Positions 9,594 to 10,094 of a stretch of 64,000 nt of DNA are shown here, one piece after another. Position 1 is the stretch's first letter. Each line of letters starts with the position of its first letter. The position numbers and the translations under genes were made by a program. This DNA is from a bacterium HR19 (lineage in GTDB: Bacteria; Calescibacteriota; Calescibacteriia; Calescibacteriales; Calescibacteriaceae). The notes beneath the pieces are model-generated. The model saw nothing but the letters and a program-made list of their open reading frames with translations, had not been told where the DNA came from and made no database searches. Location of the stretch: NCBI GenBank assembly GCA_002898315.1, contig BEHV01000001.1:196620-260619 (forward strand), read 5' to 3'.

Positions 9594-10094
9594 ATGAACA
9601 CGGTAATAAAAGAAAGCATAAACATAGAGTTAGAAAAACAAAAAGTTTATGGGAAACTTAAAGAAATAGCAGATATTTTACACGTAGATGTTGCAACAAT
9701 ATACATATACGATGAGAAGAGAAGAGAGCTTATTTTGTGGTGTAGCTACGGTCTTGAAAGAGATTCATGGGGAACAAGAATTCCTATAAATCGTGGTTTA
9801 GTTGGCAAATGCGCAAGGGAGATGCGTCCGATTTCGGTGAAAGAACCATCAAAACATCCCGATTTTTACTATGTAGAAGGTTCCGGAGAGGAAAAGTATC
9901 AATCTTTTCTCGCAATACCGGTTACACAGGAAGGGAAACTTCTCGGCTTATTTGTTGTGCAGACAATAGAGATGAAGTTTTTTCTTTCAGAAGAAATAAG
10001 AATCATCTGGGCGGGCGCAGAAAGGTTTGTAAAAGAGATTTTAAAACTTCAAAAAATAGGAGGTGAACAAAGATGGAAAAAAGCTTCATTTTAA
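9594..10094 (+). CDS. Stand-alone GAF-domain protein, translationally coupled to amtB
   Basis: GAF-like fold signature (DVATIYIYDEKRRELILWCSYGLE...GLVGKCARE...FLAIPV...GKLLGLFVVQ). Strong ribosome-binding site AGGAGG. The 3' end overlaps the amtB start by 22 nt. Confidence 0.7.
   Translation: MNTVIKESINIELEKQKVYGKLKEIADILHVDVATIYIYDEKRRELILWCSYGLERDSWGTRIPINRGLVGKCAREMRPISVKEPSKHPDFYYVEGSGEEKYQSFLAIPVTQEGKLLGLFVVQTIEMKFFLSEEIRIIWAGAERFVKEILKLQKIGGEQRWKKASF

What the first reader, a model, noticed from the sequence alone, without database searches (positions are those of the whole stretch)
9594..10094. Single-domain GAF protein translationally coupled to amtB
Stand-alone GAF proteins are rare. 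The overlap with the amtB start implies stoichiometric co-expression with the transporter. It could be a previously undescribed small-ligand-sensing regulator of Amt, analogous to but distinct from PII/GlnK (which is also present downstream).
Basis: inference. Interest (0 to 1): 0.6.

Follow-up and report, generated by a model that had tools for sequence, protein, structure and literature searches.

The report
Free-standing PtsP-type GAF sensor beside amtB
A small one-domain sensor protein, related to the part of the enzyme PtsP that binds glutamine and 2-oxoglutarate, is encoded immediately in front of the ammonium transporter gene in one group of hot-spring bacteria; it is probably an extra nitrogen-status sensor, but its ligand and its target are untested.

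Summary
ORF 9594-10094 (+) encodes a 166-aa single-domain GAF protein. Its last 22 nt overlap the amtB start codon (10073), and glnK follows at 11405. The gene is under purifying selection (dN/dS about 0.12).

It is not a generic GAF. Its closest relatives by sequence and by predicted fold are the N-terminal GAF domains of PtsP (EI-Ntr), which bind glutamine and 2-oxoglutarate. It falls in a separate clade of short stand-alone GAF proteins (98/100 bootstraps).

The order sigma-54 activator, glnA, outer-membrane barrel, GAF, amtB, glnK recurs in all 14 Calescibacterium-type loci recovered. The amtB ribosome-binding site always lies inside the last GAF codons.

No stand-alone relative sampled outside that lineage sits near amtB, glnK or glnA. 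In two sampled loci outside the lineage the same outer-membrane gene directly abuts amt with no GAF between. The pairing therefore looks like a lineage-specific insertion.

The best reading is a nitrogen-status sensor co-produced with AmtB and GlnK that acts by protein contacts. Direct control of AmtB is only one possibility; GlnK, the sigma-54 activator and glutamine synthetase are equally open targets.

This is a new variant of a known kind, of moderate interest.

The parts
5581..7071 (+). Sigma-54-dependent transcriptional activator (EBP): AAA+ domain and Fis-type HTH, with a 140-aa N-terminal domain of unknown family and no receiver domain
   Evidence: Pfam Sigma54_activat 9.8e-72 and HTH_8 6e-13; nothing detected in residues 1-140. 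PDB sequence hits all start at or after residue 132. hhalign of the N-terminal domain against the GAF family gives probability 0.2%. Present upstream in the 12 Calescibacterium-type loci whose sequence reaches that far.
7152..7167 (+). Sigma-54 promoter TGGCAC-N5-TTGCA upstream of glnA
   Evidence: The only perfect match to TGGCACNNNNNTTGC in the 64 kb window (sequence). The TGGCAC half is conserved in relatives; the -12 half reads TCCC in the C. nevadense type.
7256..8683 (+). glnA, glutamine synthetase type I
   Evidence: ATG at 7256 after AAGGAGGT. Pfam Gln-synt_N and Gln-synt_C on the orthologues. 89-97% identity to relatives.
8754..9575 (+). 273-aa predicted outer-membrane beta-barrel of an uncharacterised family
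   Evidence: No Pfam or NCBIfam hit. 274 homologues. AF2 pLDDT 80.9, an N-terminal helix followed by 12 strands; fold hits are outer-membrane barrels. Linked to amt or kdp genes in other phyla.
9594..10094 (+). Stand-alone PtsP-type GAF protein, 166 aa (the finding)
10058..10065 (+). Shine-Dalgarno sequence of amtB (AGGAGGTG), lying inside the Gly-Gly-Glu codons at the end of the GAF gene
   Evidence: The GGAGGTGAA / GGE arrangement is conserved in all orthologous loci but one, L002, a frameshifted assembly that reads GGAGGCGAA and still encodes GGE.
10073..10094 (+). 22-nt overlap of the GAF 3' end with the amtB 5' end
10073..11332 (+). amtB ammonium transporter, 419 aa
   Evidence: Pfam Ammonium_transp 3.4e-119; TIGR00836 6.3e-133.
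11405..11743 (+). glnK / PII, 112 aa, with T-loop Arg47 and Tyr51
   Evidence: Pfam P-II 5.8e-37; NF008111 3.7e-56. T-loop residues read from the translation.

Best explanation
The gene encodes a cytoplasmic, free-standing sensor domain of the PtsP (EI-Ntr) GAF type. In the Calescibacterium lineage it was inserted between an outer-membrane channel gene and amtB, inside a probably sigma-54-driven nitrogen-assimilation cluster (activator, glnA, omp, gaf, amtB, glnK).

Shown:
- It is a real, selected, single-domain protein.
- It keeps the motif set of the PtsP GAF domain.
- Its stop and the amtB start are always within a few nucleotides, and the amtB ribosome-binding site lies inside its last codons. 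It is therefore made whenever AmtB and GlnK are made.

Inferred:
- Like the PtsP GAF domain, it binds a nitrogen-status metabolite, most likely glutamine and/or 2-oxoglutarate.
- Having no output domain, it passes the signal on by protein-protein contact, through its N- and C-terminal helices, to a partner encoded in the same cluster.

The partner I rate most likely is the AmtB-GlnK module. The GAF protein could tune the GlnK plug, or bind AmtB directly.

Rough probabilities:
- Real stand-alone PtsP-type GAF in a nitrogen operon: 0.95.
- It senses a nitrogen or C/N metabolite: about 0.5.
- It acts within the AmtB/GlnK/GS/activator circuit: about 0.45.
- It directly gates AmtB: about 0.2.
For: Family assignment. 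The best NCBIfam hit is the N-terminal GAF of PtsP (2.8e-19, profile positions 26-140 of 748). The best PDB sequence hits are the PtsP GAF domains 3ci6 (9.6e-18) and 3trc (9.6e-16). The best fold matches of the AF2 model (pLDDT 88.8) are the same two entries. Identity to full-length PtsP GAF domains is 31-39%.

Conserved residues. Shared with PtsP: Y37, G53-L54, G68, G71, P79, H88-P89, E99-E100, Y102, P109, G118, V121-V122-Q123.

Ligand precedent. The PtsP GAF domain binds glutamine (inhibitory) and 2-oxoglutarate (stimulatory) (PMC13104625 and PMC4848567).

Synteny. The same gene order, as far as each contig extends, is found in 5 genome loci and 9 metagenome loci. GAF identity is 65-94% while AmtB identity falls to 51-57%.

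Junction and selection. The tight junction is conserved. dN/dS is 0.11-0.14.

Nitrogen context. There is a perfect sigma-54 promoter before glnA, an adjacent activator, and a nitrite/sulfite reductase upstream.

Insertion. In two sampled loci outside the lineage the omp gene directly abuts amt with no GAF between.

GAF-PII precedent. [quoted passage not shown]
Against: - No experiment has tested a ligand or a partner. Nothing here shows contact with AmtB.
- The wider stand-alone clade shows no nitrogen link. P0014, the Gallionella/Nitrosomonadales loci, P0018, P0047 and P0086 sit beside sulfur-transporter genes, cytochrome bd oxidase with peroxiredoxin, enoyl-CoA hydratase, or hemerythrin. The ancestral ligand of this clade may therefore not be glutamine or 2-oxoglutarate.
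- The clade has its own signature residues (A74-R75, S97-G98) that differ from PtsP.
- The ligand-contacting residues of the PtsP GAF domain have not been defined structurally: 3ci6 and 3trc carry no ligand in their entry titles. 'Pocket conserved' therefore means 'family motifs conserved'.
- Synteny is conserved only within one lineage, so part of it may be inheritance rather than selection.
- I could not check whether these genomes lack GlnD or possess a PtsP.
Confidence: 0.45

Rival explanations
1. The GAF protein is a detached sensory module for the adjacent sigma-54 activator. It would bind the activator's AAA+ core or its unknown N-terminal domain, possibly together with GlnK, and switch transcription of the glnA-amtB cluster according to nitrogen status. 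AmtB would not be its target.
For: The activator has no receiver, PAS or recognisable GAF domain, so its input is unknown. It is present in the 12 loci whose sequence reaches that far upstream, with a sigma-54 promoter next to it. Direct precedent exists: the A. brasilense NifA GAF domain, expressed in trans, inhibits N-truncated NifA in response to fixed nitrogen, and it binds GlnB (PMC3854208).
Against: The GAF gene is joined to amtB, not to the activator gene, from which glnA and the omp gene separate it. Its closest relatives are PtsP GAF domains; the match to the NifA model is weak (7.3e-5 against 2.8e-19).
Confidence: 0.2
2. The GAF protein regulates glutamine synthetase, as a small effector-dependent protein partner of GS encoded in the same cluster, rather than regulating the transporter.
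For: glnA is in the same conserved cluster and probably the same transcript. Glutamine and 2-oxoglutarate are the product and the carbon-skeleton signal of the GS/GOGAT pathway (established knowledge).
Against: The omp gene separates gaf from glnA. In the relatives' longer glnA-omp spacer I saw by eye a hairpin-like inverted repeat, which hints at a separate transcript; I did not test it. No precedent for GAF-GS binding turned up in my searches.
Confidence: 0.1
3. The protein senses something unrelated to nitrogen (redox state, oxygen, another metabolite), as other members of its stand-alone clade may do. Its position before amtB would then be a lineage-specific accident kept by operon inertia.
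For: Stand-alone relatives lie next to cytochrome bd oxidase and peroxiredoxin (Gallionella), AhpC, or hemerythrin with a second GAF gene. None is near nitrogen genes. The amtB link occurs in a single lineage.
Against: The junction, with the amtB Shine-Dalgarno inside the GAF codons, has been kept while AmtB diverged to 51-57% identity and synonymous sites saturated (dS about 1.7-2.2). Every other gene in the cluster is a nitrogen-assimilation gene.
Confidence: 0.15
4. Split PtsP: the GAF protein is the separated sensor of an EI-Ntr enzyme encoded elsewhere, and it controls a nitrogen-related PTS phosphorelay in trans.
For: Strong similarity to the PtsP GAF domain. Databases already label it PtsP.
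Against: There is no EI (PEP-utilising) domain anywhere in the 64 kb window and none of the annotated ORFs is a PTS component. The protein belongs to a clade separate from PtsP GAF domains in 98/100 bootstraps. The rest of the genome could not be examined.
Confidence: 0.06
5. It is an enzyme of the free methionine-R-sulfoxide reductase type (a stand-alone catalytic GAF), or a dead gene fragment.
For: fRMsr proteins are single-domain GAF proteins of similar size and appear among the fold matches.
Against: Sequence similarity to fRMsr is insignificant (3mmh, E = 0.39). The protein has only two cysteines (C50, C73), and neither is conserved in the clade. dN/dS of 0.12, an own Shine-Dalgarno and ATG, and a conserved length argue against a fragment.
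Confidence: 0.02

Closest known systems
N-terminal GAF domain of PtsP / EI-Ntr (E. coli, Sinorhizobium, Caulobacter; PDB 3ci6, 3trc)
   Same: Closest by sequence (E 1e-16 to 1e-19; 31-39% identity) and by predicted fold. It shares the motifs GL, GxxG, HP, EE-Y, P and VVQ, and the long N- and C-terminal helices. The PtsP domain is the known glutamine/2-oxoglutarate sensor.
   Different: There is no phosphotransferase (EI) part: the protein ends after the GAF domain and its C-terminal helix. It belongs to a separate clade with its own signature residues (A74-R75, SGEE). It is encoded in an amtB-glnK operon. The GenBank name 'Phosphoenolpyruvate-dependent phosphotransferase system' is an over-annotation.
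Unnamed clade of short stand-alone PtsP-like GAF proteins (139-165 aa; Gallionella/Nitrosomonadales and various metagenomic bacteria)
   Same: Same size and architecture, 35-51% identity, and one clade in 98/100 bootstraps.
   Different: None of the sampled members lies near amtB, glnK or glnA. No function is known for any member.
GlnK (PII)-AmtB regulation
   Same: A small cytoplasmic metabolite sensor encoded next to amtB and co-expressed with it. This is the model for what the GAF protein might do.
   Different: The fold is unrelated (GAF, not PII). A canonical GlnK is also present, so the GAF protein is an addition and not a replacement.
NifA GAF domain acting with PII (Azospirillum brasilense)
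   Same: A GAF domain that responds to nitrogen status, binds PII with ATP and 2-oxoglutarate, and can work in trans as a separate polypeptide on a sigma-54 activator (PMC3854208). A sigma-54 activator and a PII protein are both encoded in this cluster.
   Different: Sequence similarity to the NifA model is weak (7.3e-5). In nature the NifA GAF domain is fused to its activator.
Free methionine-R-sulfoxide reductase (fRMsr/MsrC), the best-known stand-alone GAF proteins
   Same: A single GAF domain of about 160 aa.
   Different: No significant sequence similarity and no conserved catalytic cysteines.

Membership tests
GAF domain superfamily (Pfam PF13185 / PF01590) | Profile match above the curated gathering score | tested here: met
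   GAF_2 48 bits (cut-off 28.6); GAF 42.9 bits (cut-off 22.4).
GAF domain superfamily (Pfam PF13185 / PF01590) | GAF fold: an antiparallel beta-sheet packed against helices, with long terminal helices | tested here: met
   AF2 model with pLDDT 88.8 and six strands plus helices. All top 50 PDB matches listed are GAF domains or GAF-containing proteins, with Foldseek probability 1.00.
PtsP / EI-Ntr (NCBIfam NF008283) | N-terminal GAF domain of the PtsP type | tested here: met
   Local match to profile positions 26-140, E 2.8e-19; 3ci6 and 3trc are the top hits.
PtsP / EI-Ntr (NCBIfam NF008283) | Enzyme I body (phospho-histidine and PEP-binding domains), full length about 750 aa, score above the equivalog cut-off | tested here: not met
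   The protein is 166 aa. It scores 68.9 bits against a cut-off of 583. tblastn with three PtsP proteins matches only the GAF part anywhere in the window.
Stand-alone PtsP-like GAF clade (unnamed) | Single domain of 139-177 aa that groups with the other short members and apart from the PtsP-fused and phosphorylase-fused GAF domains | tested here: met
   NJ tree on 158 columns: the split is supported in 98/100 bootstraps. Shared A74-R75, SGEE and VVQT motifs.
Free methionine-R-sulfoxide reductase (fRMsr) | Sequence similarity to fRMsr and conserved catalytic cysteines | tested here: not met
   3mmh E = 0.39. Only C50 and C73 are present, and neither is conserved among relatives. That catalytic cysteines define the family is from established knowledge.
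Cyclic-nucleotide-binding GAF domains (PDE2/5/6, CyaB) | NKFDE signature motif; closest similarity to cNMP-binding GAF domains | tested here: not met
   No NKFDE-like motif. PDE2A and CyaB2 hits are far weaker (2.5e-7 to 0.03) than the PtsP hits. The motif's role is from established knowledge.
PII / GlnK regulators of Amt | PII fold and Pfam P-II match | tested here: not met
   The GAF protein has no P-II match. The separate gene at 11405-11743 is the PII protein (5.8e-37).
Functional class: regulator of AmtB | Physical, ligand-dependent interaction with AmtB or GlnK and an effect on ammonium transport | not testable with these tools
   Only genomic linkage is available.
Functional class: glutamine / 2-oxoglutarate sensor | Direct binding of glutamine or 2-oxoglutarate | not testable with these tools
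   Inferred from homology to the PtsP GAF domain. The contact residues in PtsP are not known to me.

The most novel reading that the evidence does not exclude
The GAF protein is a second, PII-independent or PII-cooperating class of ammonium-transporter regulator. It would be a glutamine/2-oxoglutarate-binding GAF dimer that docks on the AmtB trimer or on the AmtB-GlnK complex, giving this lineage a direct glutamine input to transport control. Bacteria normally obtain that input only through GlnD-mediated uridylylation of PII.
Probability: 0.15. Interest if true: 0.75.

Novelty: new variant of a known kind. Interest (0 to 1): 0.4.

Why it matters
AmtB control by GlnK is one of the best-conserved regulatory pairs in prokaryotes, and no other dedicated protein partner of AmtB is established. 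Here a PtsP-type GAF domain, the only GAF subtype shown to read glutamine and 2-oxoglutarate, is made as a free protein and is co-translated with AmtB-GlnK. That offers a simple, testable candidate for an additional nitrogen-status input.

It also points to an uncharacterised clade of stand-alone PtsP-like GAF proteins in other bacteria. If the protein only hitch-hikes in the operon, the finding reduces to a corrected annotation: the protein is not a phosphotransferase.

The limits are clear. The pairing occurs in one uncultured thermophilic lineage, and there is no biochemical evidence.

Tried and rejected
1. Broad conservation of GAF-amtB synteny: rejected. None of the stand-alone relatives outside Calescibacterium has amtB, glnK or glnA within the flanks examined. 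These are P0014/L007, six Gallionella/Nitrosomonadales genome loci, eight metagenome loci, P0018, P0047 and P0086.

2. PtsP fragment or pseudogene: rejected, on dN/dS of 0.12, an own Shine-Dalgarno and ATG, a conserved length, and membership of a separate clade.

3. GAF-AmtB fusion by frameshifting: rejected. In relatives the stop precedes or abuts the ATG in varying frames. From established knowledge, the AmtB N-terminus faces the periplasm, so a cytoplasmic GAF domain fused there would be topologically wrong.

4. fRMsr and cyclic-nucleotide GAF domains: rejected.

5. Is the activator's N-terminal domain a GAF? BLASTP E = 0.16 over the beta-hairpin only. hhalign probability 0.2%. No PDB or Pfam hit. 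A word-index protein search found nothing. This remains unresolved.

6. First alignment for the genome scan was too diverse and gave an error; repeated with five sequences.

7. My first sigma-54 pattern had the wrong spacing and missed the promoter; corrected.

8. Rfam scan of 5000-13000: no RNA family, and so no glutamine riboswitch.

9. Literature searches found no description of a GAF gene in an amtB operon, and none of stand-alone PtsP-like GAF proteins. The Calescibacterium papers do not discuss it.

11. I could not test for glnD, glnE or ptsP elsewhere in the genome.

Full report
**1. What is there**

The window comes from 'bacterium HR19', a metagenome-assembled genome. The 166-aa protein is GBD02924.1. 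Related loci carry the names Candidatus Calescibacterium nevadense and Calescibacterium sp.. The HR series of genomes came from a 65-70 °C geothermal bioreactor and includes 'Calescamantes' (PMC5877337).

- ORF 9594-10094 (+) starts with ATG. AAGGAGGT lies 9 nt upstream, and the ORF begins 18 nt after the stop of the preceding gene.
- At 36% G+C, an open frame of 166 codons has a chance probability of about 5e-6.
- Pfam finds one GAF domain (GAF_2 1.8e-12, GAF 8.8e-11) and nothing else.
- The amtB ATG is at 10073 and is preceded by AGGAGGTG at 10058-10065. The GAF stop is at 10092-10094, so the two genes overlap by 22 nt.
- amtB (Ammonium_transp, 3.4e-119) is followed after 72 nt by a canonical PII/GlnK gene (5.8e-37), with T-loop Arg47 and Tyr51.

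**2. The gene is real and selected**

Orthologues with 65-94% identity exist. Nei-Gojobori dN/dS against seven of them is 0.11-0.14. This holds both for the close pair (dS 0.28) and for the distant ones, where dS is saturated.

**3. What kind of GAF it is**

- The best NCBIfam hit is the N-terminal GAF of PtsP/EI-Ntr (2.8e-19, profile positions 26-140 of 748). The NifA model scores only 7.3e-5.
- The best solved-structure hits by sequence are the PtsP GAF domains 3ci6 (9.6e-18) and 3trc (9.6e-16). Cyclic-nucleotide GAF domains score 2.5e-7 or worse, and fRMsr scores 0.39.
- An AF2 model built from 15 sequences has pLDDT 88.8. Its best Foldseek matches are again 3trc and 3ci6.
- An exhaustive HMMER search of 1.84 billion representatives returned 5353 hits. 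Besides giant multi-GAF proteins and roughly 760-aa PtsP-like proteins, it returned about 17 short proteins with 32-51% identity.
- In a neighbour-joining tree of 158 aligned columns, the Calescibacterium proteins are monophyletic (100/100). They sit inside a clade of short stand-alone GAF proteins (139-165 aa). That clade is split from PtsP GAF domains, and from GAF domains fused to glucan phosphorylase, in 98/100 bootstraps.
- The clade keeps the PtsP motif set: Y37, G53-L54, G68, G71, P79, H88-P89, E99-E100, Y102, P109, G118, VVQ121-123. It adds its own residues: A74-R75, S97-G98, T124.
- The conserved polar residues lie in helix 68-76, the 84-103 loop and strand 115-124 of the model. From general knowledge of GAF domains, these are the elements that form the ligand pocket. 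I could not measure this on coordinates.
- There is no NKFDE motif. The only cysteines are C50 and C73, and neither is conserved in the clade.

The protein is not a phosphotransferase. It scores 68.9 bits against a cut-off of 583, and no Enzyme I domain occurs anywhere in the window. The database names 'PtsP' and 'phosphotransferase system' are over-annotations.

**4. Context and its conservation**

The local gene order is:

| Coordinates | Feature |
|---|---|
| 5581-7071 | sigma-54 activator |
| 7152-7167 | perfect sigma-54 promoter TGGCAC-N5-TTGCA, the only perfect match in 64 kb |
| 7256-8683 | glnA |
| 8754-9575 | 273-aa predicted outer-membrane barrel |
| 9594-10094 | GAF |
| 10073-11332 | amtB |
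| 11405-11743 | glnK |

A nitrite/sulfite reductase lies upstream, at 724-2976.

The same order, as far as each contig extends, is found in five genome loci (L001, L002, L004, L005, L006) and nine metagenome loci (L041-L049). Some of these duplicate each other. They represent at least three sequence lineages, in which AmtB has diverged to 51-57% identity, the GAF protein to 65-72%, GlnK to about 85% and GlnA to about 89%.

At the GAF/amtB junction, the amtB Shine-Dalgarno GGAGGTGAA is always encoded by the terminal Gly-Gly-Glu codons of the GAF gene. The one exception is the frameshifted assembly L002, which reads GGAGGCGAA and still encodes GGE. The GAF stop takes one of three positions:
- 2 nt before the ATG (C. 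nevadense type);
- overlapping it as TGATG;
- 22 nt (HR19) or 16 nt (L004/L041, by my count from the sequence) past the start of the ATG, where the original stop has been lost.

These are shown. Tight coupling is thus conserved; the 22-nt overlap is not.

**5. The link to amtB is lineage-specific**

The nearest relative outside the lineage, P0014 (51% identity by HMMER, 46% by tblastn), lies between sulfur-transporter genes and yaeQ. Other stand-alone relatives have these neighbours:
- Gallionella/Nitrosomonadales proteins (six genome and eight metagenome loci): in the two I annotated, cytochrome bd oxidase and a peroxiredoxin;
- P0018: SCP2 and AhpC genes;
- P0047: an enoyl-CoA hydratase;
- P0086: a second GAF gene and a hemerythrin.

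None has amtB, glnK or glnA within the flanks.

The outer-membrane gene upstream of the GAF gene belongs to a large uncharacterised family (274 hits). In a Nitrospirae bin (glnE-like, PII, glnA, omp, amt, amt) and in another metagenome contig (omp, amt), it directly abuts amt with no GAF between. The simplest history is that a member of the stand-alone GAF clade was inserted between omp and amtB in an ancestor of the Calescibacterium lineage and has been kept there.

**6. How it most likely works**

*Established elsewhere.* The PtsP GAF domain binds glutamine, which inhibits autophosphorylation, and 2-oxoglutarate, which stimulates it. It is required for nitrogen-dependent control in E. coli, S. 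meliloti and C. crescentus (PMC13104625 and PMC4848567). [quoted passage not shown]

*Inferred here.* The free GAF protein binds a nitrogen-status metabolite. Lacking any output domain, it signals by contact, presumably through the long helices 2-29 and 132-156 that in PtsP connect to the enzyme.

*Choice of partner.* The gene is co-translated with amtB and glnK, so I rate the AmtB-GlnK module as the most likely partner. The activator is nearly as plausible: its 140-aa N-terminal domain matches no known family. Glutamine synthetase is also possible.

*Against any nitrogen role.* The rest of the stand-alone clade shows no nitrogen context. Ligand and partner are wholly untested.

**7.

However:
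- 'rare' is overstated;
- an overlap does not imply stoichiometric expression;
- cyclic nucleotides are unlikely ligands;
- 'regulator of Amt' is one option among several.

I found no paper describing a GAF gene in an amtB operon, and none describing this stand-alone clade.

**8. Verdict**

This is a real, conserved, lineage-specific addition of a PtsP-type GAF sensor to the amtB-glnK operon. It is a new variant of a known kind, with a plausible and testable nitrogen-sensing role, and it is confined to one uncultured thermophilic lineage.

- Interest: 0.4.
- Most novel reading not excluded: a second class of ammonium-transporter regulator that supplies a direct glutamine/2-oxoglutarate input. 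Probability about 0.15; interest about 0.75 if true.

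Noticed in passing
window 8754-9575 (+); also L121, L123, L125, L127, L128: The 273-aa gene upstream of the GAF gene has no Pfam or NCBIfam match. 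It has 274 homologues, the listed ones about 42-67% identical outside the near-identical P0166, about 240-290 aa long and unnamed or 'hypothetical', in Nitrospirae, Gemmatimonadales, Kofleriaceae and others. The AF2 model (pLDDT 80.9) is an N-terminal helix followed by a roughly 12-stranded barrel that resembles outer-membrane porins and channels. In the five other loci sampled it sits directly before amt genes (2 loci) or inside or before kdp operons (kdpABC-omp-kdpDE twice, omp-kdpFABC once). It looks like an undescribed outer-membrane channel family tied to NH4+ and K+ uptake.
   Followed up: partly
window 7084-7167 (+): A perfect sigma-54 promoter TGGCACaccttTTGCA lies at 7152-7167, about 90 nt before glnA. 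Upstream of it are two similar boxes (GATAACAATATTGTAAAAA and TTAACAAGAATGTAAAGAA) that are conserved in relatives and could be activator-binding sites. In C. nevadense-type relatives the -24 half is kept, but the -12 half reads TCCC instead of TTGC.
   Followed up: partly
window 5581-6000 (+): The sigma-54 activator next to the cluster has a 140-aa N-terminal domain, conserved among orthologues (57-92% identity to HR19), with no receiver, PAS or GAF match and no PDB sequence hit. Its input signal is unknown.
   Followed up: partly
L014-L019 and L058-L120 (Acidobacteria / Terriglobia): Many soil Acidobacteria encode proteins of about 900 aa in which a PtsP-like GAF domain (about 40% identical to this one) is fused to DUF3417 and an alpha-glucan phosphorylase domain. 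This suggests metabolite control of glycogen breakdown by the same GAF subtype. In two of these loci (L066, L072) a distant amt gene lies convergently downstream; this is probably coincidence.
   Followed up: partly
L008-L013, L036, L039: In the two Gallionella-type loci I annotated (L011, L013) the stand-alone GAF gene sits between cytochrome bd oxidase genes and a peroxiredoxin. The P0018 locus also has an AhpC gene nearby. The P0086 locus has two tandem stand-alone GAF genes followed by a hemerythrin. This is a possible redox or oxygen theme for the wider clade.
   Followed up: no
window 11809-12384 (+), repeat at 11998-12215: The ORF after glnK encodes a 191-aa coiled-coil protein with a hydrophobic C-terminus. 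It is built on a 33-bp (11-aa) tandem repeat of 6.6 copies. In the 94%-identity relative L004 only residues 1-87 and 158-191 align, so the repeat copy number seems to vary. The gene is not found in C. nevadense-type loci.
   Followed up: no
window 9594-10094 (GBD02924.1) and cluster members P0156, P0159, P0044: Public annotations call these 135-166-aa proteins 'Phosphoenolpyruvate-dependent phosphotransferase system', 'PtsP' or 'GAF and PtsI domains'. They contain only the GAF domain, so the names are over-annotations.
   Followed up: yes
window 683-697 (+) and 46581-47885 (+): A weaker sigma-54-like element (TGGAATaaattTTGC, 2 mismatches) lies just upstream of the nitrite/sulfite reductase gene (724-2976). 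A second sigma-54 activator, this one with a PAS domain, is encoded at 46581-47885.
   Followed up: no
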